Shown here one piece after another: positions 2,178 to 33,048 of a stretch of 33,263 bases of DNA (positions are counted from its first letter, which is position 1; each line of letters starts with the position of its first letter). The stretch is from Chiloscyllium plagiosum (lineage: Eukaryota), in contig NW_025213461.1 in the NCBI RefSeq assembly GCF_004010195.1, forward strand, positions 1-33,263, in the 5' to 3' direction. The position numbers and the translations under genes are program-made. Below the pieces are notes generated by a model. That model was not told the origin of the DNA and searched no databases. It saw only the letters and a list, made by a program, of their open reading frames with translations.

Positions 2178-2265
2178 TACTGAAGAATTTTAGCTGGTCT
2201 GGTAGCATTTGTGGAGAAAGAAATAGAGTTAATGTTTCAAGTTCAATATGATTCGTCTTCAAACC
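2178..2265 (-). mobile_element. Old Penelope-type terminal fragment with a degenerate hammerhead motif
   Basis: Reverse complement reads TTGAAGA-CGAATCATATTGAACTT-GAAACATTAACTCT, resembling copies at 14840-14940 and 29245-29400. Confidence 0.55.
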
Positions 2266-3634
2266 TGCCAATTTGGGTTAAAACATCTCTGTTAATGGGA
2301 ATGCATTGCTGACATCTTGTCCAAAGATATTGTGTGATATAGAAGATAAGCAAACAGATGTTCGCACCAAGTGAAGCATAATGGATTTTGATCACTTTCT
2401 TTTAAACAACCCAGCTCTGGAGTCACATTATCTAGGGTTCCTTTGCATTGGGTGATGAGAATGTTCATATAACTGTCAAGTGTAGCATTTCAGAAAAATT
2501 CTGAGCTTGTTTATCTCCCGGTGATTGCTGAGAAATAGTCAATGTGCCACTTTGGGTTCAATAGCAGCCATTTAAAATCCAGTAAAAGTCAACTTTAAAA
2601 AAGGAAAATGAAACAGGATAGATTGAATATATTTTTTAAAACTGTCTATCCTTTCCTACCTTCTGAGCATGATGGGAGCATATTCCATTTTTTTTTATTC
2701 TATGTGCGATGAAAAGGAATTTAAAAAAACCATAATCTGTTGAGAGACTAACAGTTCAGGAATAGTTCATTGCATAATTAGGACAACTGATAGCAAAAAC
2801 ATAAGATTTACAAAATCCATGAGAGATGGCTCTGAGAAGAGGCTGCATGATCTAGAGAACAGGAATTGACGTTGCCATAGTGAAGCAACCAGGTACATAT
2901 ATAAACTATGAAGAAGTTTTCATAAAAATATCTGAAAAAGTGTAGTTAGTTGAACTTTTGCATTCATCCTCAAGGCCACTCATAAGTTTGATATACTTTT
3001 TTGGTAACGTTCTCAGAATATGTTATTAAATACAAATGATTTCATTTGAAATACAGTACAGTAAGACATAAATTAGTTAATTTCACCTCATCAAAAGCCA
3101 TCAGGGATGGACTCCGAACAGGAATTTGTTAATTAACTTCACTAAATTAATGTGTTTACAGTAGCATAATTAATACTTTCAAAAGACTAAGGAGTATAGG
3201 CCAACATCAGGATGAATAATCTGAAGGCAAAAAATGGCTGATAACATGGTCACGATGTTTGCGCAAATGAAGTTAATGACATCAGCTCGCCATGTCAGGC
3301 TTTAGGATTCATCCATGCCTGCAGTGCTGAAGTCAACACATTTTATTCACAGTGACGCAGCTCATGCTCCCAGCCTGTCCCACTTTCATTTCATGTGATC
3401 AACCAAACTCGAATCAATAGGTGATCTAATTGATTTAATTATCTCTGGATCCGCTTCATTCGTCTAGCGGAATGAGTGTTACCACAGTACAGGAAGAAAA
3501 GTACGCATATGTTGAAATGAAATTACATATCCATGCTGAACAGGCGGATGTGTGACATCTCAACAGAGTGCCACTCTATCATTGGGTAGTGGCCTCACAC
3601 TACAACGCTCTGTCCCTGTACGTGCACGCTCTTT

Positions 3635-3650
3635 GCTCCACCTGCTGGCA
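3635..3650 (-). promoter_or_regulatory. CTCF-like motif
   Basis: Minus strand TGCCAGCAGGTGGAGC closely matches the CTCF core CCASYAGRKGGCRS, in repeat-free sequence. Confidence 0.55.
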
Positions 3651-4002
3651 GAAGTCACAAAAAGGTGCAGCGTACAGATATAGTTAACTGAAAATATGTT
3701 CGAAACTTTGCTGGAATCAACTGAGGTCTGCTTCACATAGGATAAAATTACACACAGTGCCCAAAATTAATGTAACATCCGCCATGATATTTTAAAACTG
3801 GAATCTTTCTATTGTTGACAGGTTAACAGCTTTGATTAAAAAGTACATATAGTCAATTTACAGCATGTTGCAGGTTATCACTGCTAAAGCTACTGGATTA
3901 TATACTGCTTTTTTTTGGCAACCGTTGCATTTCTAAAATAACTTTAATGGAGTTAAGCGAGTCTCTTCCAATAGAATGCTAGCCGAGATTTTGTGGAGGT
4001 AC

Positions 4003-4019
4003 TGATGATGATGATGATG
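4003..4019. repeat. (TGA)n microsatellite
   Basis: TGATGATGATGATGATG. Confidence 0.8.
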
Positions 4020-4036
4020 GAATTGATCACGCTCAC

Positions 4037-4077
4037 CTTCATTCCTCTACTGAAACTGGCAGTAATGTCTGGATTCT
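4037..4077 (-). other. Candidate 41-nt internal exon (one open frame, xNPDITASFSRGMK)
   Basis: Minus strand T-rich tract ...TTTTATGTTTTTTTTTGTGAAAGTAG | exon | AAG^GTGAGC donor. Confidence 0.4.
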
Positions 4078-4524
4078 CTACTTTCACAAAAAAAACATAA
4101 AATACAAATGTAGCTGTCAGTGGTTCTTAACTTGTACAGGGAGTTCTGCACTGGTGAGGTTCTGCAAAGAGCAAACTCTAACAATCAATAAATTGATGCT
4201 TTCTTCCAATTTACACTGTTTGCCACATTGTAAAAACCTTTGAACAAGCTATACTTTGTTGAATGAGGTGTAACTGAGTCCTCAGCAACTTACTACGTTT
4301 ATGAAAGCTAATTTTGTAATTGTGGAATGTCACTTTACTCCATAATCATATAAACATTTGTATAGTCCTAAAATAGGAATATTAATATGTTTTTAGCTTC
4401 TATCCAAATAATATCATAATTTATTTGGTGATTGGAAAATTTATATTAAAAATAAAGGATGATGTGCTTTTTTATTCTCTGAGAGAATACCTCAATGGGA
4501 TTGACTGGTCACTATTTTAGGAGA

Positions 4525-6185
4525 TCTGGACATCACTGGCAAGGTTAACATTTATTGTCCACCCCAAATTTCCCTTGCTGAGCCACCTTTTTGAACTGCT
4601 GCAGTCCATATTGTGTAGTTTATTATATTGTTGCATCAAGGAAGTTGCATGATTTTGACCAAATGCCACTAAAGGAACATCTATTTAGTTCCAAGTCAAG
4701 TTGATGTGTGGCCTGGAGGGGAATATGCAGGCAGTGGTGTTGTTATATTTCTGTTGCCCATGTTCTTCAAGATGGTATAGTTTATTGGTTTGCAAGTTGC
4801 TGTCATAGGAGCCTGGGCAAATTCCTGCTGTGCATCTTGACAATGGTATCGAGTGATGTCGCTATGAATCAGTGATGGTAATGTTTATGGTTTCAGTTAG
4901 AGAGCCAATCAAATAGCTGTTTGACCTGGATGATGTCAATCTTCTTGGATGTTGGTGGAGCTGCACTCATCCATGTAAATAAAGAGTGTTCAGTCACATT
5001 TTTGATTTGTGCCTTATAAATAGTGAACAGTCTTTGGCAAGACTTCAAGCCTCAAGCCTGCTGTTGCAAGTATGACATTAATGTGGCTGGTCTAGTTACA
5101 TTTCTGGTCAATGGTGTTATGAAGATGTGGGGGTACTGTACCTTTAAGAGAGTTAAAAGCTAGCACTAAGTGTTCTGAATAAGGTCACAATGTAACACTG
5201 GGTCGAACGCTAGGATAGCTGGTTGCCTGGAGATAAGAGCAGATTTGAATTAGGCCAATAAGGTTAAGTTATACCCCCCAAAAATACCAAATTCCAAACA
5301 AGTTTGAATTTAGTATATTGACAACCTTAAAAACCAGTGACACATCCAATGCTTTGGGGATATAAGACCAGAAAAAGTTGAACAGTTGGGAGGAGAACTG
5401 CCATTCCTTCAGCATTCGAGACTGCCCAAAAAACAGCTCTCTTAAAAGTACCTTTATCAATCAGTAACCTGTGAAGCAGAAATCCCTAAGAAGAAGAAAA
5501 GAAGATTTGACATCTGGCGGTTTTTTTTCAAAAGTTGAATTTTGGTAAATCTTAATCAAGGGAGTTTTATCGGACTACTATTCTAGAAGGGAAAGTGAAA
5601 GGTAGGTTAGAGGAAGGAGTTGTAAATAGCTGTTAGTTAACTATTCTGTGTTATACTTTAAGAAATAGAGTTATTACTTTTACTTTTGTTCTTGGCCTCT
5701 TGAATTTTCACAGATTACTGCACAGGATAAATATTTTCTGCGTTGCTGGTTTAATTTAAACAGGAGAGTTTACCTATGTCGTAACAATGGTAACCACTGG
5801 ATTTGACGCCAGGAAATTCAGTGATGCTAATGCATTGAAGGGCAAGCAGAGGTGGTTAGACTCTCCGTAGTTGGAGATGATAATTATAAATGTCTGGAAT
5901 GAGTTTTGCATGACACATATCAGCCAAAGATGAAATCTGGATTGGCCTCATTTCAGTAAGTGTTATGAATAGTGCTAGATATTCCTCCATACCCTATGCT
6001 GTATCCAGTACCTTCAACCATTACTTAAGTGAATCAAATAGGATAAAGACTAGCATCTGTGATACTGGGGCCCTCAGGGGCAAGCCGAGATGTACCGTCC
6101 ACTTGGCATTCTGACTGAAGATGCTTGCCTACATCATCACTGTTGAGAAGCTTGAATCTCCACATGGCTTAGCCAGATTCAAACA
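4525..6185 (-). mobile_element. Old CR1-like LINE 3' part, interrupted by a solo LTR
   Basis: 3' end reads GACAATAAATGTTAACCTTGCCAGTGATGTCC on the minus strand; TTTCTGGTCAATGG|TAACC joins across the LTR; similar to 19660-20500. Confidence 0.75.
5115..5786. mobile_element. Solo LTR (672 bp)
   Basis: Termini TGTTATGA...TCGTAACA (imperfect inverted, TG..CA) flanked by 4-bp TSD ATGG (5111-5114, 5787-5790). Confidence 0.9.
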
Positions 6186-6719
6186 ACTGTTAGGAATCTG
6201 ACAGAGATCATCAGGTCTTCATGTATAACCTTCTGTAAGCCCATTGGTGGGTGCTGCTCCTTCATTGGTGAATGTAAAATTTAGCCCTTTGTCTCAATTG
6301 TGTTTATCTCATGCTAATCAGTCTAATCATGTAAACACATACTATTTCAATACTTGTTAGCATCTAAATTTGTTAATAGGATACTCAATACCTTGGAATT
6401 AAATGCAACAAGAAAAACATGTGTTGGGGACCTGTTTGAAATTGGATGAAAATGTATTTAAAAAAACAGCCATCCAAGAGAAGAGATGTGTGGATTTGAA
6501 TGTTATGGTAAGCACTGCATGGAGAAATGAAGACTTTCTTCCAAAGTACATTGTCTTTGTATATGCTCCACAAATAAGCTCAAGTAATGCTTAACAATAC
6601 TATCATTATCTCCAATTCGGGTGGCTCTGTTCTCAAAAAAAAGTGTTCAGATCATGGAGCAAAGGGTTAACTAAACGATTACTCTAAACATGCGTTAGGA
6701 GCTATTTCATGATGATGTC

Positions 6720-8700
6720 AGGTCCAATGGATTGAGACCTGATGGAACAAGCTGCTGGAGAAGCCCTGTTCTAACTTGCTTATGTATGAAAATTTTGGTG
6801 ATAAAGGTTAATAGTTTGCACCAGCCTTCTCTTCAGGCTTCATCAGTCTTAAGCTCCTAATGATGTTCCTATATGGTGACCAGACCCAGAAAAGTGGTGG
6901 TAAGTAACAAGAAAAAGACGTGAAGAGAAATCCAGTCACACCAGAGAGTAGCAGATGAAGGACTTTAAGGGCAGGCTAGAAACCTGCGAACAAAACTATC
7001 AGGACAGTCCAGCGACTAGCACAGACAGCACCAAGTGAAACATTGCCTTCAACTCAGGTGAGCAATGAATTCTGCCCTACCTCTCCCAACAGCTTTCTGG
7101 AATGCAAAATTCACCAGGCAGGCTGAGCAAATGTAGAGTGAGTGTAAGTCCTTTCATGCCACTCTTCTTGGAGGGTGCCGAATTGAAAGTGCACCATATC
7201 AGCAACAAGGAAAGTACACAGAAATGGTGCCAACTGATATTTCACAATATCTCCGGAAAGTGGTTTATATTAGGAAGAAGGCCTCCATTGAAAGCCATAG
7301 CTGAAATAACAATTGTTAATATGAGAGGAGAGGTCATTTAAAAATGCTAACATTTACAAGACACATGAAAGATAACTTTAATAGAAACCTTTCACAAGAA
7401 ATCACTTTTCCTACTGAAGTCACGGGCAATGAAGATCATCATTGGAGAGTAAACATCACTGTAAATGCATATCACACAGACTTTAAATTGGACACAAGTG
7501 CAGGAGTTAGTGTTTTGGCTGATGGACTTAAATGACTGCAAAACATTACACCGCAGTCTTCATCTAATACATTGCAAGACCCCGAAGGAATTAACCTCAA
7601 CATTAAAGGTCAGATTCAGGCAATATTAGGACACAAAGGCACAGAAATGTCAGAAACATTGTATATTATCCATAACCAATCATGTTCATAACAAAGTAGG
7701 AAAGCATGGATGGGTCTCAACTTTATCGTTAAAGTAGACGATGTCACCAACAAGGAGGAGTTTGAACAATAGTTTCCAAAATTCTCAAAGGCCTAGGACC
7801 ATTTCACATTGAAAGCAGTTGCCCAACTCAGCTGCATGCTTGTGTTCAGGAAGGTCCCATTGCACTTCTTAAAAGGGGAAGGATTGAGACCATGCTCCAT
7901 GGGAAGCTATTTCACTACTCACTGAACTGACCATTTAGGATTCTACCATGGTGCCAGTTCCCAGACAAAATAGACCAATTAGAATTTGTACTGATTTAAC
8001 ACGTTTAATAAGGTGATATCACAAAAGAAATACACCAAATGGTGAGTAAAGACAATAGCCCAGCTAAACTTGCAAATAGCATAATCTTCACCAAGATGGT
8101 TGAAAACAGTGAGTCTGGGCAACTTTGATGAAGTGAGGAGTCCAAATTTCTAGTCATTGCATGTTCGTAACATTGTCTGAATATTATTGCCTACATTTTG
8201 GAATTGCATCCCCACCTGAGACTTTCCTGTGGATGAGGTCCATCGTATTTGAAGGTATGGAAGGTATGCTATATTGATGACATTTGCAGCTACAGATCCA
8301 CTGAAGAACAAAATGAAAAAATATAGTGGAATTCTTGGAACCATTATGAGTGCTGCATTGACACTCAATGACAAGTGAGAAATTTCAAAGTACGGATGTC
8401 ACAGCAGACCCGAAAAGTCAAAAAACATTCAGGAATTACCACCTACCAGAACACTAAATATTTATGTATATTGGTGAATCAGGTGGGATCAATGAAATGT
8501 TCATGTCATCAGATGTCCAAGCACATTATATTCCCAAACTTCAAACTATTATAGCAGCAGAGATGTCATTCAGAGAATGGGGTAAGCCTATTCCTGATCC
8601 AGCGTCATGGGGTAAGAAGACTGGTTTATTGGAGTTCTCACTGAAACCAGACATCAATATGCTATAATAGAGAAGGAAGAGGCAGGAAGTCTACAAATTG
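6720..8700 (+). mobile_element. Degenerate Gypsy LTR retrotransposon (putative 5' LTR remnant, PBS, protease, RT)
   Basis: PBS-like TGGTGACCAGAC at 6874; protease WRVNITVN..FKLDTSAGVSV; RT MVPVPRQNRPIRICTDLTRL, FGIASPPETF, CYIDDI (8267-8284), LTLNDK*E; many stops and frameshifts. Confidence 0.9.
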
Positions 8701-9191
8701 CGCTAAGTTGTAGACTAATAAAAATTCCTCTGATTGCTGATGCAGTTATGTTCATTCATATTCTATAATCTTACTGTTCATCTGAACTTTTCCCAGATGC
8801 TCACTTAAGTTGGAATGTGAGACTTGGAAGTCTAAGACACCACAATATTTTTTTGGAACATATATACTGAATGCAACTTGGAGTGCTATAACTTGAATAC
8901 CCAAGGAAGTTGTTTTGCAACATGAAAATGAAGTGTTGTGAATCCAATGTTTTTTTGGAATCAGTAAAAGGGAAAATTTGAAACCGAGCTGCACAGAGAA
9001 TCTTTCAAATAAAGGAAATATTGTCTGGTTGGGCTGCTGGGTATTAAACGGCTATATGTGCCATGAGCTGCAGAGGTGCGTGTGTGTGTTTGTGTCTGTG
9101 TGCATGCAAAGACAGACAATCAAAGAAAGCACACCAGGAATGATCTAAGTTTACATAACCAATCATGGGATTGAAGGATGATCATCACATT

Positions 9192-9497
9192 ATATACAAT
9201 ATACAATCCCTACAGGGCAGCAAGAGGCTGTTCAGCCCATGAAATCTGCACCAACCCTCCAAAGAAAATCCCACCCAACCCCAACCTCCTCCCCTATCCC
9301 TGTAACCGTGCATTTCCCATGGTTAAAGTCTCAACCTGCACATCTTTGGACTGTGGGAGAAGCACCCAGTGAAACCCCACACAGATACAGGGAGAATATA
9401 CAAATTCCACATAGATAATCACCCAAGGCTGGAATCATACCCAGATCCCAGACACTGTGAGGCAGCAGTACTAACCACTGAGTCACCATGCCACCCC
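9192..9497 (-). mobile_element. HE1-type V-SINE
   Basis: tRNA-like head (GGTGACTCAGTGGTTAGTACTGCTGCCTCACAG), V-domain CCCACAGTCCAAAGATGTGCAGG, CR1-like tail. Confidence 0.9.
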
Positions 9498-10960: not shown

Positions 10961-11017
10961 ACTGCACTCAATTCATTCTTGTGCTTTCTACTGGCAACTT
11001 TCTTTGTGTGCTTCTAC

Positions 11018-11136
11018 AACCAGCTGAAGGAGCTGTGCTCTGAAAGGTAGTGCTTCCAAATAAACCTGTTGGACTATAACGTGGTGTTATGTGATTTTTA
11101 ACTTTGTACATCCCAGTCCAACACTGACACCTCCGA
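11018..11136 (+). mobile_element. Short Penelope-type terminal element (AGCU hammerhead family), core degenerate
   Basis: CAGCTGA-AGGAGCTGTGCTCT-GAAAGGTAGTGCTTCCAAATAAACCTGTTGGACTATAAC; near-identical family member inverted at 19190-19282. Confidence 0.8.
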
Positions 11137-11204
11137 ATCTTTATTTCCCACCTCTGTGTACAGCTGTGTTTTTTTATATAATTGTCTAGTTGCAGTTGCT
11201 AGGC

Positions 11205-11393
11205 GAAAGTGAGGACTGCAGATACTGGAGATCAGAGTCAAGATTAGAGTGGTGCTGGAAAAGCACAGCAGGTCAGGCAGCATCCGAGGAGCAGGAAAAT
11301 CAATATTTTGGGAAAGAGCCCTTCATCCTCATTCCTGATGAAGGACTTTTGCCCAAAACGTCAATTTTCCTGCTCCTCGGATGCTGCTTGATC
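11205..11393. mobile_element. Palindromic non-autonomous Penelope-derived element
   Basis: 57-bp inverted arms 11271-11327 and 11337-11393 (about 9 mismatches), 9-nt loop; CTGATGA-AGGACTTTTGCCC-AAAACGTC. Confidence 0.85.
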
Positions 11394-11777: not shown

Positions 11778-12096
11778 ATTAGATTAGATTCCCTACAGTG
11801 TGGAAACAGGCCCTTTGGCCCAACAAGTCCACACCGGCCCTCCGAAGAGTGACCCTCCAAAGAGTAACCCACCCAGTCCCATTTCCATCTGACTAATGCA
11901 CCTAACACTACGGGCAATTTAGCACGGCCAGTTCACCTGACCTGCACATCTTTGGACTGTGGGAGGAAACCCACACACACACACAAGCGGGGAGAATGTG
12001 CAAACTCTACACAGACAGTCGCCCAAGGCTGAAATTGAACCTGGGACCCTGGTACTGTGAGGCAGCAGTACTAATCACTGAGCCATCGTGCTGCCC
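11778..12096 (-). mobile_element. HE1-type V-SINE, full length
   Basis: tRNA-like head, V-domain, tail GGGCCTGTTTCCACACTGTAGGGAATCTAATCTAAT on the minus strand. Confidence 0.93.
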
Positions 12097-13345: not shown

Positions 13346-13593
13346 AAGGTACATGCAACAAACAGTCTTCACTGCTCATAATGCAGTCTCATCTCCAGAC
13401 TCAGTAATCACTTTGTAGAACCCTCACTCAGTCCACAAGCGTAATCCTCATCTTCCAGTTGCTCATCATGCTCAATCACCATTTTGCCATGACACTCGGA
13501 TTTCTGCTCTTGGCTGACCTCAGTGTTCCAGAGAAGCTTAACACAAGATTGATGAGCAGCACCTCATCTTCAAACAGGCACTTTATCCTGGAC

Positions 13594-14089
13594 TAGGAGA
13601 AAGTGAGGCCTGCAAATGCTGGAGAGTCAGAGTCAAAACGTGTAGCACTGAAAAAACAAAACAGGTCAGGCACCATCCGAGGAGCAGGAGACTCAATATT
13701 TCGGGCATATGCCCTTCATCAGAAATGGGGGAGGGCAAGGGGGCTGAGAGATAAATGGGAAGGGGTGTGGGGCTGGGGCTAAGGTAGCTGGGAAGGCAAT
13801 AGGTAGATGAAGGTGGGGGGTGCTTGTGATAGGTCACCATCTTCTGCCTTGGGGCCCTCCAACCACATGGCATCAATGTCGATTTCACCAGTTTCCTCAT
13901 TTCCCCTTCCCCCACCTTATCCCAGATCCAAACCTCCAACTCGGCACCACCCTCTTGAACTGTCCTACTTGTCCATCTTCTTTCCCACCAATCCACTCCA
14001 TCCTCCGGTCCAACCTATCACCATCACCCCCTCTCCTGTTCCTCGGTTGCTGCCTGACCTGCTGTGCTTTTCCAGCGCCACACTTCTTG
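13594..14089. mobile_element. Younger non-autonomous Penelope element with inverted termini
   Basis: 14-bp direct repeat ACTTTATCCTGGAC at 13580-13593 and 14090-14103; internal IFCLGALQPHGINVDFTSF (GIY-YIG end, from 13839); ends match the 11205 element. Confidence 0.87.
13691..13726 (-). ncRNA. Minimal type-I hammerhead ribozyme motif with intact core
   Basis: Minus strand AUUU-CUGAUGA-A-GGGCAUAUGCCC-GAAA-UA-UU-GAGU: core, stem II, palindromic AAUAUU stem III, stem I AUUU/GAGU with wobbles. Confidence 0.7.
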
Positions 14090-14838: not shown

Positions 14839-15869
14839 AGTCCCAAAGAGTCATATATTAGATGAAAATGATGACTCTGTTTCTTACTCCACATGTGCTG
14901 CTGCACCTGCTGAGCTTTTCCAGCACTTACTGATTTTATAGGCAATTAAATTTTCATCAATAGGGTGGGAGGTGAACGACAGGAGTATTGAAGAGTTGAG
15001 GAATAAACAACACCCGATTGAGGGCTTTTGCAGTGGATCTGCTGAGAAGGGGTATTGGGGGAGGGGGATGGGATGAGAGCTGTTACAGGGCTGGAAATTA
15101 GAAGGCATTGATGGAGAAGCGGCTACGAATTTATAAAGTCATCTCAGGATCGAATAAGGTGCCAAAATTGTAAATAGTCTCATTCAGCCTCTGACAGTGA
15201 CCAGAGCTGAAGAGTGCCACTGTCAGCAGAAGGAGGCTCTGAGTTGCTAGATTTGATTTTGTTTGGCAAAGAGTGGAAAAGTTCCACTGGATTGAAAGGT
15301 GAGGCAATCTGCAGAGGCAGCAGCTGAATTTAATAAGGCGAGGGAAATATATTTCTACTCATAGGAAACTGAATCAGACGATCTGAAGGAACTGCTCGCT
15401 TGTTGAGGTGTATGACTTTTTTAAAAACAAATTAGGATATTGCTGAATTATGCAGTTCCCCCTGTTGTGAATTATGAATGACCCCTTAGGGGTGTTGAGC
15501 TCTGCCTCTTAATTTCCCAATAAATAAATAGATTGAACATTGATCTACTTATATAAGTTGCATTTCTCTGAGACCTTGCTGTGACAGTGAAATGGCTAAG
15601 GTCATGGAGTTAAGATTTTTGCATTAGAAGGTTTACAAGATAACTGTAAACCTAAGGCAAAGGTCTGTTAAAGCCCAATCGTAGGCAAGGTGAACTATCC
15701 TAATCCAGCACATGCCCTTCACACTCGCTAGTCATTTCCAAGACCCTGGGATGTCACCTACTGCCATGTGCTTGCACATCCACTGGGCAGAGGCTTAAGT
15801 GAATGAACTAATCTCTTAAAACTATTGTGCATTTTTAAGAAGAATTCTGACTGCATCAGAGGCTAGAAA

Positions 15870-16500: not shown

Positions 16501-17146
16501 ACATTGCTGAAGCCACACAATGTTCTCGTCTTGTGCACCAACTCAAACCTCATTTCATCCTATTCCTGTAACTGTGTAATGGGCAATGAGGTGATCCTAT
16601 GTTTTTTTTCCTTCCACTAGTCTTCCAAATTTCCCCATATACATTTATGATTTCATATTCCCAAAAGCTGTTGAATCATCGGGAGCAAGCCCCTGCCATT
16701 CTGGTACCTGTGACACCAAAAACAGTGACACAATCAAGTCAAAATACCTGGCTTCAGGTTTTCTGAATACACAAATAATGATATTCAGGTAGAAAAAACA
16801 TTCTGTAAAAAATACTATTCCCACTGTTTTAATGCCATCAGACCTATTTCAAGAATGCCTTAGGTATTGTCATAGCAAACACTTAAAGGATTCCATCCTG
16901 TGTGAGAGTATTAGAGTGCACTTGTGTAAATTTATATTTTGGAATTCAAAATAATGTAAAATATATGGAGCATGTCACTGGAAGAAAATACAAACTGCTT
17001 TTGACAGAGGCAGTTACACATTAGGGAGTTTATGGTGGAGAGCGCTATATATTATATATTGGCCTGAGTTGTTTGTCTATTGTGACCAGGTTAATCCAAT
17101 TACTAAAGGCAAACAATAAATAATGGCTAAAACGCTACTGTTTTTT

Positions 17147-17404
17147 GACATGGTGGCTCAGTGGTTGGCACTGCTGCCTCACAGCACCAGGGGCCCGGGT
17201 TCAATTCGTGCCTTGGGCAACTGCCTGTGTGGAGTTTTCACATTGTCCCTGTGTCTGAGTGGGTTTGCTCCGGTTTCCTCCCATAGTCCAAAAGATGTGC
17301 AGGTCAGGTAAATTGGCCATGCTAAACTGCCTGTTGTGTAGGGGAATGGGTCTGGATGGGTTGCACTTCAGAGCCTGTTTCCAGACTGTAGGGAATCTAA
17401 TCTA
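17147..17404 (+). mobile_element. HE1-type V-SINE with internal deletions
   Basis: TGGCTCAGTGGTTGG A-box, GGTTCAATTC B-box, V-domain, AATCT tail. Confidence 0.92.
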
Positions 17405-18321: not shown

Positions 18322-19545
18322 TGTTGGAGTTAGGATAATATATTGGCGTAGATAAAGAATTGGCTCATGGGCAGGAAACAGCAAGATGGGGTAAGGGGTT
18401 CTTTTTTGGATTGGTGGCCTGCGACCAGTAGAGTTCCACAGGGACAAATGCTGGACCACAACTGTTTACAATGTATATAAATGACTTGGAGGAAGGAAGC
18501 AAATGTGCTGTAGTCAAATCGTAGATGACACAAAAATAGGTGGCAAAGCAGGTTATAAAAGAGGTACAGTTTACAGAGAGATATTGAGGTTAAAGGAATT
18601 GCAAAAAAATTACATATGGATTATAATGTGGAAAATATGAAGTTGTTCATTTGGAAAATGATTTAAATGTGGAAAAACTGCAGAAGGCTGCAACACAAAG
18701 GGACTTGAGGGGACTTGAGCACAAAACATAGAAAGCTAGCATGCAGGTGCAGCAAGTAATCAGGAAGGCTAATGGAATGTTGGCCTTCATTTCAAGGAGA
18801 TTGGATTATAAGAGTGGGGATGTTTTACTAAACTGCACAAGGTGCTGGTAAGACAACATCTGGAACACTGTGAGCAGCTTTGGTCCACTTATTTAAGGAA
18901 AGATATAATATCATTAATGACAGTTCAGAGATGGTTCACAAGAATGATATCAGATATGGAGGGATTGTCTTATGACCAAAAACTAAATAAGCTGGGATCC
19001 TACTCTCCAGAGTTTAGAAGAATGAGAGGCGATCTTAATGCATTATTTAGGGTTCTTAAGGGGCTTGACAGGGTAAATGCTGAGAGGATGTTTCCTCTCA
19101 TGAGTGAGATTAGGACCAGAGGGCACAGTCTCAGATTAAAGGGGCACCAATTTAAGACTGAGTTAAGAGGAATTTCTTCTCTGAGGGCTTACAAAGTTAA
19201 AAATCACACAACACCAGGTTATAGTCCAACAGGTTTAATTGGAAGCACACTAGCTTTTGGAGCGACGCTCCTTCATCAGATGATTAGTGGAGGGCTCAAT
19301 CCTCCAATTCTCTGAGGGTTGTGAGTCTTTAGACCTCCTTGTCACAGAGACCTGTTGGGCAGAATCTTGTGCATACTTAAGGCTGAGAGGCATAGATTCC
19401 TGACCATTATGGGAAATCAAGGCTTACAGGGAAAGCACAGGAAAATAGACATGATGAATATTGGATCAGCTATGATCTGATGGAATGGCGGAGGAAGTTC
19501 AAGAGGCAGAACTGCCTGCTCCTGTTCTTATTTCCTCTGGTTTTA
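18322..19545 (+). mobile_element. CR1 LINE ORF2 3' part
   Basis: VPQGQMLDH, LVRQHLEHCEQLWS, RMRGDL, RTRGHSLRL. Confidence 0.92.
19188..19307 (-). mobile_element. 120-bp Penelope-type insert carrying a hammerhead motif (19248-19282)
   Basis: TSD TTCTCTGAGGG at 19177-19187 and 19308-19318; minus strand CAU-CUGAUGA-A-GGAGCGUCGCUCC-AAAA-GC-UA-GUG (G12 mutated to A). Confidence 0.87.
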
Positions 19546-20490
19546 GGCTCTTACTTTCTGCAATCATTAGTGAATATCCCCAACTCTGAACTTATGATGA
19601 AGGTCAACGATGAAGCAGCAGAAGACGTCAACGATGAAGCAGCTTTCAAACATGTATTCAAGGGATGTGGGCAGCAGTGGTTAGGCTAGCATTCCTAATT
19701 GCCCTGAGAAAGCAGGGACTGAGCTGACTTCTGGAACCACTGCAGAAGATGGGGTGCAGTGCTGAGTTGAAAGAAGCTTGAGGATTTTGTCCCAGTGATA
19801 GTATAAGAATGGTTATATGATTCCAAGTCAGGATAATGAGTTGTTTGAAGGGGGACTTGCAGGTGATGATGTTCTCATGCATCTACTGCCAAAGTCACTA
19901 TTCTGAAGCACTGCTTCAGTGATATGCTGGAACTGAGATGACTGACCTCCAACAACCACAACCATCTTCCTGTGTGCCAGGTATGACTCCAACTCACAGA
20001 GAATTTGTCCCCCTGATTCCCATTGACTCTGATTTTGCTAGGGCTCCTTGATGCCACACTTTGTCAAATTTGTCAGGCCTTGATGTCAAGAGCAGCCACT
20101 CTCACTTCAGGTCTGGAATTCAGCTCTTTTATCCATGTTTGAACCCTAGGCCCTGATGAGGTCAGGAGTTCCTGAGTGGCCCTGCTTGAACCCAAACTGA
20201 GTCTCAGTGACTGGGTTATTATTGAGTAAGTGTGCTTTATAGGACTGTTGATTACCCCTTCCAATACATTATTGATAACTAAGAGTAGATTGTTCGGGTC
20301 ATAATTTGCAGGGTTAGATATTTCCTGGTTTTTGTGGATCAGACGTACCTGGACAATTTTCCTCATTGTCAGGTAGATGCCAGTGTTGTTATTGTACTGG
20401 AGCTGCTTGGCTAGGGATGTGGCAAGTTCTGGAGCACAACTCTTCAATATTATTGCTGGAAAGTAGCCAGGCTTTATAGTCTTTGTAGTA

Positions 20491-20691
20491 CAGGCAGTCT
20501 TTGGGTTGCGAACAAGTTCTATTCTGGGGTCCATTCGCAAGTAAATTTGTATGTAAGTCTGAACACAGTGCAGGAGAATATAAAGGAGCCATTTGTAAGT
20601 ACACAAAATGTTTGTATGCCAGGTCTTTAAGAGATCACATTGTAAATACAAGTGTTCATCAGTCAGATATTTGTAAATCAGGAGCCTCCTG
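20491..20691. mobile_element. Tigger/pogo-like MITE
   Basis: TA|CAGGCAGTCTTTGGGTTGCGAACA ... TATTTGTAAATCAGGAGCCTCCTG|TG: degenerate TIRs at a TA target; host LINE resumes on both sides. Confidence 0.65.
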
Positions 20692-21635
20692 TGCCTGGTG
20701 TCTTCAGCTTGATATCATGCGGACTGTATCAAATTGGCTGAAGACAGCTATTAATAATGCTGGGGATCTCAGGGGGTGACTGAATGAGGATGGGGTATTT
20801 GTGGAGTCTCTTTCTCCAGTGAGTTGTTTAATGGTCTGCCACAATTCACAACTGGATATAGCAGGACTGCAGAGCTTCAATGTGATTTATTGATTATGGG
20901 ATCTCTCCCTCAGTATATCACACAATATTTATCTCCTGGGAATGCAAATAGACCTGTGTTGTGACTTCACCAGGTGGACACCTCATTTTGAGGTATGCCT
21001 GGTGCTGCTCCTTGCATACCCTCCTGCATTCCTCATTAAACTAGGATTGATCCTCTGACTGGATGGTAAAGGCAGAGTTGGGAATATGCTACATCAAAAA
21101 GTTATAGGTCATGGTTGAATATATACTGTTGATGGTTCACAATCTTGGATTTGCTAGTCTTAGAATTTCTGCTTGAAATGTATCCAATTTAATGTGGTGG
21201 TCATGCAAATAACACAATGAAGGATATCCACAATATGATTTCATTTTCATAGATACTGTGCAGTCATCACTCCTAACAGTACATGGACAGATGCACCTAC
21301 AACAGGTAAATTGGTGAGGACAAGTCAAATATGCTTGTCCCTCTTGTTGGTTCTCTCATCACTCAGTTTAGCAGTTATGTCCTTTAGGGCTAGACAAGCC
21401 CATTCAGTGGTGGTGCTACTGAGTCACTCTTGGTGACAAGCAGACATTGATGTCCCTGACCCAGAGTACATTTTGTGCACTTGATACCCTCAGTGCTTCT
21501 TCAGAGTGTTGTTTGACAAGGAAGAATATTAATGGATGGGGTTGTGGGGGGAATAGGTGATGGTCAACAGGAAGTTTCCTTGCCCATGTTTGACCTGATA
21601 CCATGAAACTTCATGGCTTCCACAGTTCATGTTGA

Positions 21636-21827
21636 AAAATGTGCTGCAAAAGCACGGCTGGTTAGGCAGCATCCGAGGAGCAGGAGAATCGATGTCATAT
21701 TTCCTGATGAAGAGCTTATGCTTGAAAAGCCAACTCTCCTGCTCCTCGGATGCTGCCTGACTGGCTGTGCTTTTCCAGCACCACATGTTTTGACTCTGAT
21801 CTCCAGCATCTGCAGTCTTCACTCTCT
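21636..21827 (+). mobile_element. Palindromic Penelope-derived insert with hammerhead motif (21700-21735)
   Basis: Direct repeat CACAGTTCAT at 21621-21630 and 21828-21837; CTGATGA-AGAGCTTATGCTT-GAAAAGCC; inverted GCAGCATCCGAGGAGCAGGAG arms. Confidence 0.87.
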
Positions 21828-23470: not shown

Positions 23471-23788
23471 GTGGCACAGTGGCTCAGTAGTTAGCACGGC
23501 TGCCTCACAGCACCAGGGACCCTGGTTCAATTCCTGCCTCGGGCAACTGTCTGTGTGGAGTTTGCACGTTCTCCCCATGTCTGCGTGGGTTTCCTCCAGG
23601 TGCTCCGGTTTCCTCCCACAGTCAGAAAGATGTGCAGGTTAGGTGAATTGGCCATGCTAAATTGCCTGTAGTGTTAGTCAGGAGTGAATGTAGGGGAATG
23701 GGTCAGGGTGGGTTGTTCTTTGGACGGTCGGTGTGGATTTGTTGGGCCAAAGGGCCTGTTTCCACACTGTAGGTAATCTAATCTAATC
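23471..23788 (+). mobile_element. HE1-type V-SINE, full length and well preserved
   Basis: A-box and B-box, GTGTGGAGTTTGCACGTTCTCCCC, GGTTTCCTCCCACAGTC, tail (TAATC)3. Confidence 0.95.
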
Positions 23789-23947
23789 AGACCTACTCTG
23801 TTGACATCATTGCGAACTGAATATCTGAACATCCAATAGGAGCTATGCATTTAGCTCAAAGGGAGTTACAGTTCTTAATATCCTCTGTTCAGTCAAAAAA
23901 CAAATACAAGAATACTATTCCCGACTAGACCTTGCAAACATTTGTCA

Positions 23948-24098
23948 GGAGTTAGGATACAGATACTGGAGGAGTTAGGACCACAGATACTGGAGGAGTC
24001 TGAGTTGAAATGTGTAGTGCTGGAAAAGCACAGCAGCTCAAGCAGAATCCAAGGATCAGGAGAGTCGACGTTTTGGGCATAACCCCTTCATCAGGAAA
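23948..24098 (-). mobile_element. Single-arm Penelope-derived element with hammerhead motif (24063-24098)
   Basis: Minus strand CTGATGA-AGGGGTTATGCCC-AAAACGTC-GACT; 23/24-bp tandem duplication at 23948-23994. Confidence 0.85.
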
Positions 24099-24294
24099 GT
24101 ACTGAGATACAATCTGATTGGAAAATCCGAAAGTCAGTAAATATTGATTGCACCCAGTTAAAATTCTCACCTACAAGCAATTCTTTTTTCACACAGGCCA
24201 TGAAGAAAATAAACAATAAACAACAATTTTCTTCATAGGTTAGATAATTTTTTTCAGGTGCAGATTTGCCAAAATATTTAGTGAAAGGAAAAGA

Positions 24295-24532: not shown

Positions 24533-25130
24533 ATATAATAAGCAGGAACAAAAAGTCTTGTTACAATTTACAGAGCTTTGGTGAGACCAAATTTAGAATG
24601 CAATTTTGGTCTCGATATTTAAGAAAAGCTTGACTTGCTTTGGCAGACAGTGCGACGAAGGTTCACTAGATTGATCCCTGGAGTGATGGGGTTATCTTAC
24701 AACAAAAAGTTAACTGAATTGGGCCTATAGTTTTTGGAATTTAGAAGAATGAATGGCAGTCTCATTGAAACATTCAAAATTCTGAAGGGGCTGTCAGAGC
24801 AGATACGGAGAGCTTGATTCTGCTGGCTGTGAGAGTCAGGACATGGGGCAAGGTTTTAATACGAGAAGACGATCACTTGGGATTGTGGTGAGGAAAAGTT
24901 CCTTTACTCAAATGACTGTGTATTTTTGGAATTCTCCATCACAGAGGGTTATGAGCATTGCATTGTTGAATAAATTTAAGTCTCGGATGGACAGACGTTT
25001 GGTCTTACAGGGTAGAAAGTGTTATGAGATGTGGCCAAGAAAGTGGATTTGAAGAGTGAGATTAGCCATGATCATAATGAATGGCAGATCAGATTTGACA
25101 GGCTACATGGTATACACCTGCTACTATCTG
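24533..25130 (+). mobile_element. CR1 3' fragment
   Basis: YRALVRPNLE, RRFTRLIPG, EFRRMNGSLIETFKILKG, FTQ..V.FWNS. Confidence 0.88.
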
Positions 25131-26892: not shown

Positions 26893-27095
26893 TAAAAGCA
26901 ACATGCTGCATATTCTGGAAATCTGAAATAGAAACAAAATATGTTGGAAGTACTCAGTCAGTCTGACAGTTTCTGCAAAGGAAGAGACAGAGTTACCATT
27001 TCAGATACTGTATAAAAACAGAAAATGCTGAAAATACTCAGCAGGCCTGATAGCATACGTGAAGAGAAATAGAGTTAATCCTTCATGACAACTGA
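26893..27095 (-). mobile_element. Two tandem old Penelope-type terminal fragments
   Basis: Repeated AAACA.AA.ATG.TG.AA.TACTCAG...AGAGTTA units. Confidence 0.55.
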
Positions 27096-27522: not shown

Positions 27523-27899
27523 CTAGTTTAGGAAAAGGGTTAATATTGATTTATTTTCTATTAATTTTTGGCTTTCAGCTTTTAAGTGAGTTTCTGTTGC
27601 GGGTAGGAAATGTCAGTTATCATTTCACTGGAAATAGGAAATCAAGCCATGTTTTAGCTGATAAGAGTTCAGGAGAAGTAAAAATCAAGCTGCTCTTTGT
27701 TAGCTGAGATTGCAGTATCACTTCCATAAGGCAGGCAGCAGTGAGATAGTCGACAGGTTACTGGTGCCACATATTCCAGCGATAAGCAAGGCCAACTCCT
27801 TAGGAAACATTGTTGAGAAATTTGCTCAAGTGATGATTATCAAACCCATGCAACTGTTTCTTGGTGAATGTTTTGATCAGTGTTAGAGAGTGGTGCACA

Positions 27900-29235: not shown

Positions 29236-29244
29236 TGATTCGAC

Positions 29245-29400
29245 AACAAAAACAGAAATTTCTGGAGAACTCAACAGGTCTGCCAGCATCTCAGTTCTGT
29301 AGAAGGGTCACTGGACCTGAAATACTAACTCTATTTTCTCTCCAGACCCTGCTTATTCTCTCCAGCACTTTCTGTTTTTGTTTCAGATCAACAATCACAG
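29245..29400 (+). mobile_element. Old palindromic Penelope-type element with degenerate hammerhead
   Basis: ACAAAAACAGAAA...TTTCTGTTTTTGT inverted ends; CTGTAGA-AGGGTCACTGGACCT-GAAATACT. Confidence 0.7.
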
Positions 29401-30189
29401 TTCTCAGTTTCTTTGTGTTTTTTTTGTTGTAATTCGACAATTCCTAACACCAGTCATGACGAGTCTACAGTAAGCTCTGTTTAGTGTGGTGACAGGTGGT
29501 CTGTCAGTATGCCCAGTATCTTTCAAATCCAAGCCTTCATTGGCTCCATTCCAATGGCCTGCACCATGTGCCTTTTGTGGGCCATTAGTATTTTCTCCTG
29601 TTACACTTCAGCAGCTGCTAATCTTTGAGCTGCTTCCCTCCATGCTAGTTTGGCCTTAAGACAGGCCAGTAAGGGAAAATGCTACCACCAATTAGACACA
29701 AGAGATGTTCACTCATTTATATGTGTGACTACTTATTCATTTCACAAATTACTGCAGCAAAAACATTTCATTCTTTCATGTTTGTGATTCATGAGGAGAA
29801 AATATTTGGGGTCTATGTGGGGAAGGGGAAGGGCAAGAAATTGGACCTATACCTTGTAGCTCTTTCAATAACCAGTGCATGCACAATGGGTTAAGCAGAT
29901 GCTTCATGCTGCACCTTTCCGTGATTTCAAGAATTTGCACCATCACATGTTGTATTTTAGATTAAGTATTAACATTCAGAAATTATATAGATTGCAAGAC
30001 TTTGCCAGGTTTTGAGAGCTCATTTTATCAGTAGTTAATTAAAGTTCTGTTTGGAAAATAATGTGTTATTTTTAAGCTCCTTTCACTCGCAAGCAACATT
30101 ACCACGTGCATCTTTGGTCATTCTTTGTTTTAAAAAGTATAGCCTTTCTGTTACTTCTGTTTACAAAGCCTTGACCTTTTCCAGTTATT

Positions 30190-30345
30190 AATTCATGTCA
30201 CAATGTTGCGACCAACTCAATCTGCTTCCAATTTTATGAATAACTACTTGTGTTGGAGATTTCTGGGAGTCCATGCAGTTACCTTCCATTGAAACCTCCA
30301 TGTCCACCATATTTATGATTTCTTCAAACAATTCAACTAGAATGG
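30190..30345 (-). mobile_element. Degenerate CR1 RT fragment
   Basis: LVELFEEIINMVD....MDSQK in ORF 30188-30496. Confidence 0.6.
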
Positions 30346-30906
30346 TGAGATGAGTAAGATTCAAACTGTGGAAGTGCTCAATAAATCTTACATTGATGAT
30401 AATATAGTTTCCTAAATATGAGTCAAACATGGTCTCGAACAGAGTTTGCTTGAGCGACCACAGATTTAAAATTGGACATTCTAAATTGACCCACATCCAG
30501 AGAAATCAGGCCTAATAGAAATTGGGCCAAACAAAATTAACCAGCTGTCAGCAGCTATCAGCTACAGAGATTAGTTGAAACCAAGATCAAAGGGATATCA
30601 AAGGTCCAGAGGGAACCAGATCAAACCAACCCAAGTGCTGTGTATCGGAGAAGTATCAATCTGACCTTCTGGCATTTTGACTATCTAACAATATGCACAT
30701 TACACATCCTGGTATGGCAACAGTGATAGGTGTTGTGTGGCCCCATTGATTTATTTTGACTTAGCTCATGACCTCACTGGCCAGAGGCCACAGAACATTC
30801 TGGAAGATCGGGGTGAGACGGCACACATCTGGAAGCCATCCCTTCAGCAAAGACATGCCAGAGAAGACTCGCAGCAAGACTCATGACAGAAGATCGTGCA
30901 GTAAAT

Positions 30907-33048
30907 CATAAGACAGCACACCATAAGGTATCGGAGTGGAAATTAGGCCATTCAGCTCATTGAATCTGCTCTACCATTGAATCATGGCTGATAAGTTTCT
31001 CAATCCTATTCTCCCACTTTCTCCTTGTACCTCTTGACCCTCTTGACAATCAAGAACCTATCTATTTCTGCTCTAAATATACTCAATGACCTGGTTTCTA
31101 CAGCCTTCTGTGGCTCTGAATTCTGCACCTTCACCATTCTCTGCCTGAAAAAGTTACTCCTTATCTCTGTTCTAAAGAGTCTTCCCTTTACTCTAAGGCT
31201 GTGCCCTCACGTCCTTATCTCTCCTACCAATGGAAACATCTTTCCAATGTCCACTCTGTCCAAGTCATTCAGTATTCTGTAAGTTTCAATTAGATCCCTA
31301 CTCATCTTTCTAAACTCCATCGAGTATAGACCATGAGAACTCAAACATTTCTCATCTGTTATTAAGCTTTTCATGAACCTCCTCTGCACCTGCTCCAGGG
31401 CTTAGTATATCCTTCCCGCGGCTTAGGGCCCAAACTTGCTCACAATGCTCTAAACGTGGTCTGACTGCAGCTTCATAAAGCCTCAGAAGTTCATACCTGA
31501 TTTTATATTCAAGTTCTCTTGAAATAAATGCCAACATTAAATTAGCCTTCCTAACTGATGAAGGGCTTATGCCTGAAATGTCGGTTCTCAGCCTGATAGC
31601 CTGACTGGCTGTGCTTTTCCAGTGCCACACTTTTCGACTCTGATTGCCAGCATCTGCAGTCCTCACTTTCTCCTTTGCCTTCCTAACAACTGACCCAACT
31701 TGTTTGCCTTGAGAAAATCCTGGACTACAATTCCCAAGTCCCTTTGCACTTCAGATTTATGAATTTTCTCCCACTTAGAAAATAGTCCATGACTCTATTC
31801 TTCCTACCAAAGTACATGACCTTACATTTTCCCTCGTTGTATTCCATCAGCGATTTCTTTGCCCCCTCTCCTAACTTGTCCAAATCCTTCTGCAACTTTC
31901 CTCCTCCTCAATGTTATCTGTCCCTGCACCTATCTCTGTATCATCTGCAAACTTAGCTAGAATGCCCCCAGTTCCTTCATCTAGATCATTAATGTATAGT
32001 TGTGGTCCCAACACTGACTCTTGCAGAACACCGCTTTGTCACTGGCTGCCATCCTCAGAAGGAGCCTTTTATTCCCACTTTCTTATTTCTGCCAGATGCC
32101 AAACTTCTATCCATGCTAGTACCTTGCTTCTAACACCGTGGGCCCTTACCTTACTCAACAAACTCCTGTGCAGCACCTTGTCAAAGGCCTTTTGGAAGTC
32201 CAAGTAGATTACATCCATTGGCTCTCCTTGATCTAACCTGCTCGTTACCCCCTCAAAGAATTCTAACAGGCATGACCACTCCTTGAGGGAACCACGCTGA
32301 ATTTGATCTATTTTACCATGCACTTCCAAATATTCAGAAATCTCATCCTTCACAATCTTACCAACAACCAAGATCAGGCTAATTAGCCTGTAATTTCCCA
32401 TCTTTTGCCTACTCCCTTCTTAAACAGGGGGATTATATTAGCAATTTTCCAGTCGTCTGGGACTTTCCTTGGCTCCAGTGACTCCTGAAAGATCACTGTT
32501 AATGCCTTCACTATCTCTTCAGCCAAGTCTTTCCAACCTCTGGGGTATAGTCCATCTGGTCCAGGTGATTTATCCACCTCAGACCTTTCAGTTTTTCTAG
32601 CACCTTCTCCTTGCCACCATACTCCGTTCTGCCCCCTGAGTCTCTTGAATATTTGAGATATTACTCGTGTCTTCCACCGTGAAGACTGACACAAAGTACT
32701 TATTCAGTTCCTCGGATCTTTCTTTGTTCCCCATTACTACTTCTCCAGCATCACTTTCCAATGGTCCATTATCCGCTTTTGCCTCTCTTTTGCCCTTTAT
32801 ATATCTAAAGAAACTCTTGCAATCTTCTTTCATATTACTGGCTAGCTTACCCTCATATTTAATCTTCTCCCCCTTTATTTCTTTTGCCATTGTCCTCTGT
32901 TGGTCTCTGTAGGGCTTCCCAATGCCCTGGCTTACCAGTGCCCTTCGCCATGCAGTTTGCTTTCTCTTTTGCTTTTATGCTGTCCCAACATCCCTTGTCA
33001 GCTATGGTTGCCTCAAACTCCCTTTAGTATCCTTCTTTATCCTGGGGA
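30907..33048 (-). mobile_element. CR1 LINE ORF2 and 3' UTR, frameshifted
   Basis: EELNKYFVSVFT, KSPGPDGLYPR, NYRLISL, YLDFQKAFDKV, VRPRLEHC.Q.W, RKMSRDLIETY; CATAAG tail units near 30907-30920. Confidence 0.95.
31555..31676 (+). mobile_element. Single-arm Penelope-derived insert starting at the hammerhead core
   Basis: TSD GCCTTCCTAAC at 31545-31555 and 31677-31687; CTGATGA-AGGGCTTATGCCT-GAAA-TGTC. Confidence 0.87.

What the first reader, a model, noticed from the sequence alone, without database searches (positions are those of the whole stretch)
2178..31676. About ten minimal hammerhead-ribozyme motifs spread by three families of short Penelope-derived elements
Seen: CTGAnGA-A-[4-5 bp stem II]-(G/A)AAA-xx-TH motifs. 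The GGGC/GCCC family is at 11335(+), ~11300-11327(-, core truncated), 13691-13726(-), 21704(+), 24063-24098(-) and 31555(+). The GGAGC/GCTCC family is at 11021(+) and 19248-19282(-). An older family is at ~2228-2264(-), 29297(+) and, very decayed, ~14840. Stem III is reduced to a palindrome (ACGT, AGCT or ATAT). Established: Penelope-like elements carry minimal type-I hammerheads proposed to cleave as dimers through a palindromic stem III. Inference: these 120-500 bp non-coding inserts are a retrozyme-like, non-autonomous, ribozyme-bearing system, present here at roughly one motif per 3 kb.
Basis: partly seen in the sequence, partly recalled or inferred. Interest (0 to 1): 0.75.

Follow-up and report, generated by a model that had tools for sequence, protein, structure and literature searches.

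The report
Penelope end-stubs with decayed hammerheads
The small ribozyme motifs are the broken-off, mostly mutated ends of ordinary protein-coding Penelope-type jumping genes that litter this shark-type genome, not a separate self-copying RNA family, and the places where they start and stop suggest they are likely dead-end first-step copies, a testable clue to how these elements move.

Summary
The motifs exist at the stated places and belong to three repeat families whose majority sequence is a textbook minimal type-I hammerhead. Only 2 of the 11 named sites keep every core base, and one of those lacks stem I. The arms are pseudo-LTR ends of autonomous ~3.5-kb Penelope-like elements: they lie downstream of the endonuclease and directly before the start codon. 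They are not retrozymes: among 144 arms in 575 kb of randomly placed genome there were 2 tandem against 33 head-to-head pairs, with varied junctions, and the lethal G12A change is nearly as common as its tolerated neighbour (603 vs 704). Density is genome-typical (1 per 5.6 kb). What remains interesting: 5' ends pile up just ahead of the hammerhead, not at its cut; 43 of 48 inverted pairs join a long and a short arm; family B RNAs are polyadenylated before both copying start points. This fits 'strong-stop' copying (inferred). The scan found the same on other DNA of this and other genomes.

The parts
2178..2268 (-). Family C pLTR arm; hammerhead relic (C3 position 2262, C3U, stem II 3/5)
   Evidence: no TSD found
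11013..11140 (+). Family B pLTR arm, long 3' end; hammerhead with a 3-nt deletion in the CUGAUGA box; AATAAA and GU-rich element kept
11201..11393 (.). Family A head-to-head insertion: long arm on - (core broken, 11327) and short arm on + (C3 11335, G12A); 16-bp TSD with 1 mismatch
13594..14089 (.). Family A inverted insertion with a perfect 14-bp TSD: - arm = tail + the only intact hammerhead (C3 13722) + 3' UTR; + arm = endonuclease end + 3' UTR, a gap that skips the hammerhead, short tail
13839..13937 (+). C-terminal codons of the Penelope GIY-YIG endonuclease inside the 13594-14089 insert
   Evidence: tblastn 79% over 33 aa, E 2.8e-11, to a family A copy; 6553 first-look candidates for this stretch
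14866..14941 (+). Family C relic; only the flank downstream of the hammerhead aligns
19190..19307 (-). Family B solo arm, short 3' end, 13-bp TSD; hammerhead C3 19279 with G12A; ATTAAA and GU-rich element kept
21634..21827 (.). Family A head-to-head insertion, 13-bp TSD: short - arm without core, long + arm (C3 21704, U16.1C, GAGC/GCTT stem II variant)
23972..24099 (-). Family A solo arm (C3 24094, G12A, one stem II mismatch); no TSD found
26905..27086 (-).
29236..29402 (.). Family C head-to-head insertion: short - arm without core, long + arm (C3 29297, A6U, U16.1C)
31556..31673 (+). Family A solo arm starting at the hammerhead's first bases, 14-bp TSD with 1 mismatch; core kept, stem I lost

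Best explanation
The inserts are 90-500-bp end pieces (pseudo-LTR arms) of three lineages of protein-coding, endonuclease-bearing Penelope-like retrotransposons, and they are likely dead-end products, each made anew when the element's reverse transcriptase primes at a chromosome nick and runs off the likely front end of the element's uncut RNA. Shown: arm = sequence that lies both after the endonuclease/3' UTR and directly before the start codon; 12-21-bp target duplications; two 3' end classes 30-40 nt apart; head-to-head pairs made of one long and one short arm; 5' ends piled just ahead of the hammerhead; poly(A) addition 29-32 nt after the predicted cut in family B RNA. Inferred: the pile-up marks the transcription start (TATA-like box 35-40 nt upstream); both target strands prime, one at each internal start point, and the two short copies are joined to give the hairpins; longer copies need a jump from the RNA's 5' end to its 3' repeat. 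The hammerhead was under selection in the master elements (paired changes between families) and would need a dimer or the element's protein to cut; after insertion it decays close to neutrally.
For: Arm follows the endonuclease end by about 100 nt on the same strand in 13 of 19 other loci retrieved with the window's EN stretch, and the other 6 (like the window's own + arm) carry the arm without its hammerhead. Arm precedes the ORF start in families A and B. Arm-RT-EN-arm on one strand in L258; arm-ORF-arm in L251; RT then arm in L181. RVT_1 E 3.5e-9 and 1.5e-10; nearest Atlas cluster 0.96 with RVT_1 76%, HTH_animal 91%, GIY-YIG 11%. Family C: endonuclease end 260-450 nt upstream on the same strand in 3 loci (L106, L161, L256; E 8e-6 to 2e-4). 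Tandem 2, tail-to-tail 1, head-to-head 33 among 144 random arms; 75 A, 38 B and 30 C junctions spread over many lengths. TSD in 17 of 27 inverted units vs 4 of 270 controls; long+short in 43 of 48 pairs. 5' ends within -20..+9 of C3: 49 of 81 A arms, 12 of 22 and 17 of 32 B arms; within 2 nt of the cut: 2 of 81, 0 of 22, 0 of 32. Exact genome counts: intact 28-mer 1305, C11.1T 704, G12A 603. Poly(A) loose ends at two places, 358 and 446 reads, with read depth running through the predicted cut; none of 54 B arms ends there (shortest +54). Extra G before the predicted start in 7 of 7 non-reference bases in family B. The layout is described for PLEs (PMC8557442 passages; PMC3846280 passages); two internal start points and priming on both strands were shown in vitro (PMC11167929 parts 1-2 of 4).
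Against: No intact autonomous copy was recovered; the one '1195-aa' frame was an N-run artefact. Core bases of family A copies diverge less than flanks (3.9% vs 7.0%, p=0.012, 49 copies; not seen in B or C) and G12A is 14% rarer than C11.1T (p=0.006), so decay is not perfectly neutral or the measure is biased by how hits were chosen. The extra-G signal is absent in family A (6 of 23) and unclear in C (3 of 6), and some B cases could be templated by the inverted arm. No RNA 5' end was mapped: one search lists no pile-up of starts. 5' ends come from profile boundaries (about +/-5 nt); TSD-defined ends were obtained for only 14 of 44 A, 3 of 27 B and 5 of 33 C solo arms, with 7 of 14 A ends at -13..+5 and none of the 3 B ends there. 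One family C junction recurs in at least 4 loci, though these were picked by similarity to the window copy. The RNA run is of a same-label organism and may not be the window's species.
Confidence: 0.8

Rival explanations
1. Same identity (Penelope end-stubs), but the stop is structural: reverse transcriptase copying a read-through or tandem transcript stalls or folds back at the hammerhead's hairpins and micro-palindromes, so no transcription start or strand jump is involved.
For: Junctions often show short overlaps (negative gaps); stem II of family B is a near-perfect palindrome; self-priming at palindromes was proposed for PLE inversions (PMC3846280 passages); family B RNA runs on past the poly(A) site at about a third of the depth.
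Against: Most ends lie 5' of the hairpins, i.e. after the enzyme would have passed them; all three families have a TATA-like box at the same distance; extra G in family B; simple fold-back does not predict one long plus one short arm (43 of 48).
Confidence: 0.3
2. The short inserts are a retrozyme-like or SINE-like non-autonomous system that is transcribed, self-cleaves, circularises and is re-inserted by Penelope proteins.
For: Very high number of short copies (21,758 exact family B 38-mers; about 640,000 hammerhead-covering arms extrapolated); 27 of 103 random arms still fit a strict descriptor; one recurring family C junction; retrozymes were reported in one unnamed chondrichthyan (bioRxiv 2026.07.22.740005).
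Against: 2 tandem pairs among 144 arms, neither with two intact cores; varied junctions; copies include the uncut hammerhead and do not start at the cut; G12A almost as common as C11.1T; a head-to-head copy is predicted to fold into a long hairpin that ties up the cut-site flank.
Confidence: 0.07
3. The stubs are copies of the 3' cleavage product of the hammerhead (5'-OH RNA), i.e. a genomic record of cutting in vivo.
For: One solo copy has a TSD-defined start at +29 (doubtful 10-bp TSD); the window's 14031 arm resumes about 3 nt after the predicted cut.
Against: 2 of 81, 0 of 22 and 0 of 32 arms start within 2 nt of the cut; most carry the whole core.
Confidence: 0.05

Closest known systems
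Minimal hammerheads (min-HHR) of metazoan PLE pseudo-LTRs (Cervera and De la Pena 2014, PMC4209133; parts 1-2 of 4 read)
   Same: CUGAnGA / GAAA core, extra base between 9 and 10.1, G10.1-C11.1 pair, palindromic 15.2-16.2, no loop 3; mostly single motifs tied to truncated PLEs; pairs on opposite strands close together; several families per genome.
   Different: Copy number here is far higher (about 170,000 strict motifs extrapolated from 28 in 575 kb, against 4,000-9,000 reported for coelacanth and Xenopus with another descriptor); no shark example in the parts read; stem I is only 2-4 bp.
Insertion unit of endonuclease-positive PLEs, Neptune/Nematis type (Craig et al. 2021, PMC8557442, passages; Arkhipova et al. 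2013, PMC3846280, passages)
   Same: 5' truncation, adjacent inverted copy, one-sided 30-40-bp tail, TSD, CX2-5CxxC linker between RT and EN (CHGGRCKTC in L250).
   Different: Here the commonest unit is reduced to the two arms alone and the truncation point is sharply peaked; I did not find that peak described in the passages read.
Anole Poseidon element PAc (Frangieh et al. 2024, PMC11167929; parts 1-2 of 4 read)
   Same: Two internal start points that define the tail, both target strands extended, uncut RNA as the main template.
   Different: In PAc the ORF starts inside the hammerhead; here it starts about 90 nt (B) or 140 nt (A) after the cut site.
Non-LTR retrozymes (Cervera and De la Pena 2020, PMC7229834, passages; Li et al. 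2026, bioRxiv 10.64898/2026.07.22.740005, parts 1-3 of 5)
   Same: Type-I hammerhead, short non-coding units, kinship with PLE pseudo-LTRs.
   Different: Retrozymes are head-to-tail tandem arrays that give circular RNA; these are dispersed solo or head-to-head pieces colinear with the parent element.

Membership tests
PLE minimal hammerhead | Conserved core CUGAnGA...GAAA..UH around a 4-8-bp stem II | tested here: met
   Met by the majority motif of all three families and 27 random copies; met by only 2 of 11 window sites
PLE minimal hammerhead | Extra base after A9, G10.1-C11.1 pair, palindromic 15.2-16.2 | tested here: met
   A: ACGT, B: AGCT, C: ACGT/ATGT; extra A in all three
PLE minimal hammerhead | Paired changes in the helices | tested here: met
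   Read from the hit table, where stem I was not required: 2.1-1.1 is C-G in A and B, U-A in C; 2.2-1.2 is U-A in A and C, A-U in B; 15.2-16.2 is C-G or G-C; stem I of 2 or more pairs in 23 of 28 hits. The formal count was mis-registered and is not used
PLE minimal hammerhead | Lies in the pseudo-LTR of a PLE | tested here: met
PLE minimal hammerhead | Self-cleavage as a dimer or with the element's protein | not testable with these tools
   RNA reads show uncut molecules but cannot measure the cut fraction
Endonuclease-positive Penelope-like element | Single ORF with RT then GIY-YIG endonuclease between direct pseudo-LTRs | tested here: met
   L258 (A), L251 and L181 (B) in decayed form; RVT_1 hits; GIY-YIG read from the motif (recalled) and the Atlas cluster, no direct Pfam GIY-YIG hit; family C only by endonuclease ends
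Endonuclease-positive Penelope-like element | 5' truncation, inverted adjacent copy, one-sided 30-40-bp tail, TSD | tested here: met
Neptune/Nematis clades | CX2-5CxxC linker before the endonuclease | tested here: met
   Family B CHGGRCKTC, family A C-x-CK-x-CKTC type; definition from PMC8557442 passages
Neptune/Nematis clades | Placement on an RT tree | not tested
   No reference PLE proteins were at hand
Non-LTR retrozyme | Head-to-tail tandem repeats with a complete hammerhead in consecutive units | tested here: not met
   2 tandem pairs among 144 random arms, 1 in the window; none with two intact cores
Non-LTR retrozyme | Spreads as its own unit with a fixed monomer | tested here: not met
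   Junctions and 5' ends vary between loci; one recurring C junction is unresolved
Non-LTR retrozyme | Abundant circular RNA | not testable with these tools
   Only a poly(A) single-cell library was laid; 4 back-joint reads could come from a deleted genomic copy

The most novel reading that the evidence does not exclude
The shark Penelope pseudo-LTR is organised like a retroviral U3-R-U5 (TATA-like box, start just before the hammerhead, poly(A) site 30 nt after the cut site, then two priming points before the start codon). The hundreds of thousands of stubs are integrated 'strong-stop' DNAs, the hairpins are twin strong-stops primed from the two target strands, and full copies arise by a 5'-to-3' strand jump through the roughly 65-nt repeat that holds the hammerhead. 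This would supply the missing mechanism for pseudo-LTR regeneration (stated as unknown in PMC2377424, passages), and family B stubs would also be a large dispersed source of poly(A) signals.
Probability: 0.45. Interest if true: 0.65.

Novelty: new member of a known kind. Interest (0 to 1): 0.36.

Why it matters
As ribozymes the motifs are ordinary: minimal hammerheads in Penelope ends are known since 2014, and almost all copies here are broken. The value is in the insertion record. How Penelope elements rebuild their terminal repeats and why they form inverted pairs is an open question; this genome holds hundreds of thousands of insertions whose sharp start, two stop points, long-plus-short pairing and poly(A) site give exact predictions for cap mapping and for the existing in vitro insertion assay. 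Five literature searches found no paper on shark Penelope hammerheads or on a strong-stop model; the library lacks most subscription papers, Repbase and Dfam, and the dimer-cleavage paper (PMC5785218) was not held.

Tried and rejected
Rfam scan at E<=10: no hammerhead family hit; minimal motifs fall below the models. Single-strand folding of six motifs: no better than shuffles, only stem II forms reliably. A '1195-aa' open frame was a run of N, not an intact gene. L249 first looked like arm-ORF-arm but is a complex inversion; dropped. The first long family A profile mixed in inverted arms and was rebuilt. The pair count used a mis-registered alignment and structure; discarded. No RNA holder on record was listed for the window stretch; run X22 laid 0 reads and is no test. 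Excess of copies starting at the cut site: not found. Extra G at the predicted start: not found in family A. No host gene was identified in the window (frames of 85 aa or more listed; 8 of them scanned, only RVT_1 hits); short exons were not searched for. The DNA searches return only the 40 best-scoring candidates, so loci L002-L110 are biased to the query and were not used for rates, except where 'all loci' is said (junction list, extra-G count). PMC5785218 could not be read. No supplements were opened; the species and family tables of the 2026 preprint may bear on whether these families are already listed.


Full report
Observation. The window is a whole 33-kb contig of a 3.56-Gb genome; its repeats look shark-like (from memory of HE1-type SINEs; earlier notes say bamboo shark, not checked). 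Ten of the 11 named sites are arms that cover the hammerhead; the one near 14840 aligns only downstream of it. Only 13722(-) and 31555(+) keep all core bases, and 31555 has lost stem I because the insert begins at the motif's first bases. Three copies carry G12A, the rest other core changes or a deletion. A strict descriptor gives 2 window hits against 1 in 30 shuffles and 28 hits in 575 kb of randomly placed genome against 0-1 per shuffle. Rfam has no hit.

The motif itself. The majority motifs are A: UUC-CUGAUGA-A-GGGC/GCCC-GAA-ACGU-C-GA; B: CAC-CUGAUGA-A-GGAGC/GCUCC-GAA-AGCU-A-GUG; C: AGUU-CUGAAGA-A-GGGUC/GACCY-GAA-AYGU-U-AACU. Stem I and the stem III palindrome were not required by the descriptor, yet they pair and change in pairs between families, which is good evidence that the fold was selected in the parent elements. 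These are the traits listed for PLE minimal hammerheads (PMC4209133, parts 1-2 of 4), which that paper says are mostly single, tied to truncated PLEs, sometimes paired on opposite strands, and weak cutters in vitro.

What carries them. The window's 13594-14089 insert contains the end of a Penelope endonuclease (79% over 33 aa). In 19 other loci retrieved with that stretch the family A arm follows on the same strand, about 100 nt downstream with its hammerhead in 13 and without it in 6. Upstream of family B arms lies an RT frame (RVT_1 E 1.5e-10 and 3.5e-9; Atlas cluster RVT_1 / HTH_animal / GIY-YIG at 0.96). The same arms also sit directly before the ORF start in both families. L258 shows arm-RT-EN-arm on one strand over 3.5 kb and L251 arm-ORF-arm over 3.1 kb. 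Three family C copies have an endonuclease end 260-450 nt upstream. So each arm is the pseudo-LTR of an autonomous-type element. A CX4CX2C linker points to the Neptune/Nematis type (definition in PMC8557442, passages); no tree was built. No intact copy was found.

Are the short inserts a system of their own? Sixty 10-kb stretches at round coordinates on 27 large contigs (575,355 non-N bases) hold 82 A, 21 B and 41 C arms, 103 of which cover the hammerhead: one per 5.6 kb, about 640,000 genome-wide by extrapolation; the window's 10 are within chance of that (p=0.08). Neighbouring arms within 1 kb were head-to-head 33 times, tandem twice, tail-to-tail once. Junctions of 75 A, 38 B and 30 C inverted pairs (all loci, partly query-biased) cover many lengths with different sequences; one C junction recurs in at least 4 loci chosen for likeness to the window copy. 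TSDs of 12-21 bp flank 17 of 27 random inverted units against 4 of 270 controls and 5 of 11 window units. Exact counts for a family A 28-mer are 1305 intact, 704 with the tolerated C11.1T and 603 with the lethal G12A at the same CpG: close to neutral decay, with a 14% deficit (p=0.006). Against full neutrality, core bases of 49 A copies differ from the majority at 3.9% against 7.0% in flanks (p=0.012; B 4.4 vs 6.4%, C 15.6 vs 12.2%, both not significant); this may reflect constraint in the master lineages or hit selection. Retrozymes are tandem arrays with a ribozyme per unit that yield circles (PMC7229834 passages; bioRxiv 2026.07.22.740005 parts 1-3 of 5). That defining layout is not met. 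The layout seen is the known PLE insertion unit (PMC8557442, PMC3846280 passages).

How it likely works. 3' ends fall in two classes, about +52-70 and +91-99 nt after the predicted cut, as expected from the two internal start points shown for the anole element, which also extends both target strands and uses uncut RNA (PMC11167929 parts 1-2 of 4). 43 of 48 inverted pairs join one long and one short arm. 5' ends pile up at -20..+9 from C3 in 49 of 81 A arms (window included), 12 of 22 random B arms and 17 of 32 B arms anchored downstream, and almost never at the cut (2, 0, 0). In B, 7 of 7 non-reference bases before that start are G, as a cap would give, but A (6 of 23) and C (3 of 6) do not show it. 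In a poly(A) single-cell RNA run of a same-label organism (2% of the run read), family B reads carry poly(A) 29 and 32 nt after the predicted cut (358 and 446 reads), 12-15 nt after ATTAAA/AATAAA and before a GU-rich stretch, with depth running through the cut; both window B copies keep that signal. No B arm of 54 ends there. Since the poly(A) site lies before both start points, the insertions cannot begin at the 3' end of the polyadenylated RNA; they begin either in the 5' copy of the repeat or on read-through RNA. The first option makes the stubs run-off ('strong-stop') copies, the hairpins twin run-offs, and long copies the result of a jump to the 3' repeat. This step is inferred (about even odds); stalling or fold-back on read-through RNA is the main rival. 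No RNA 5' end was mapped, and TSD-defined ends support the pile-up only for A (7 of 14) and C (3 of 5), not B (0 of 3).

Novelty and score. The ribozyme, its host and the insertion layout are known kinds; I found no paper on them in sharks or on a strong-stop model, within a library that lacks most subscription journals and repeat databases. [quoted passage not shown] The scan has noted the same elements and the same model on other pieces of this genome and in other genomes; those notes are not independent support. Verdict: real, ordinary in kind, not a retrozyme system; modest interest for the mechanism clue.

Noticed in passing
window 9209-9494, 11778-12091, 17146-17404, 23471-23787: Four copies of a ~300-bp repeat family (69-85% alike) with an ATCTA-type tail; looks like the shark HE1-type SINE (name recalled).
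   Followed up: no
window 575-2173 (+), 18700-19500 (+), 24646-25049 (+), 30995-33263 (-): LINE fragments of CR1 type (name recalled; RVT_1 hits for three frames). The family B stub at 19190 and the family A stub at 31556 are inserted inside two of them.
   Followed up: partly
window 13525-13590 (+): A short older fragment that reads like a Penelope endonuclease end (..KIDEQHLIFK..) lies right at the target site of the 13594-14089 insert; no tblastn hit at E<=0.05.
   Followed up: partly
window 14022-14031 (+): The + arm jumps from the 3' UTR to about 3 nt after the predicted hammerhead cut, skipping the whole core; 6 of 19 related loci also carry the arm without its core after the endonuclease. 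Deletion by short overlaps or use of cut RNA; not resolved.
   Followed up: partly
window 11058-11063 (+) and 19231-19236 (-): Both family B stubs keep AATAAA/ATTAAA plus a GU-rich element; family B reads are polyadenylated there. With 21,758 exact copies of the adjoining 38-mer, these stubs could end host transcripts.
   Followed up: partly
window 23947-23999: A 24-bp tandem duplication (2.2 copies) overlaps the tail end of the 24094 stub, where no TSD was found.
   Followed up: no
window 29236-29402; L082, L084, L085: One family C inversion junction recurs in several loci; a hotspot by short overlap or a small subfamily that spread as a unit.
   Followed up: partly
L146:9735 (+): One strict minimal-hammerhead hit outside the three families, with a 7-bp stem II and no stem I; a fourth family or chance.
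   Followed up: no
L260:5151-6113 (-): An uninterrupted 321-aa frame that reads like an intronless EB1/MAPRE-type microtubule end-binding protein (recognised from memory), near a family A element.
   Followed up: no
window 20076-20714 (-): A 213-aa frame resembling another LINE RT fragment; no Pfam hit.
   Followed up: partly
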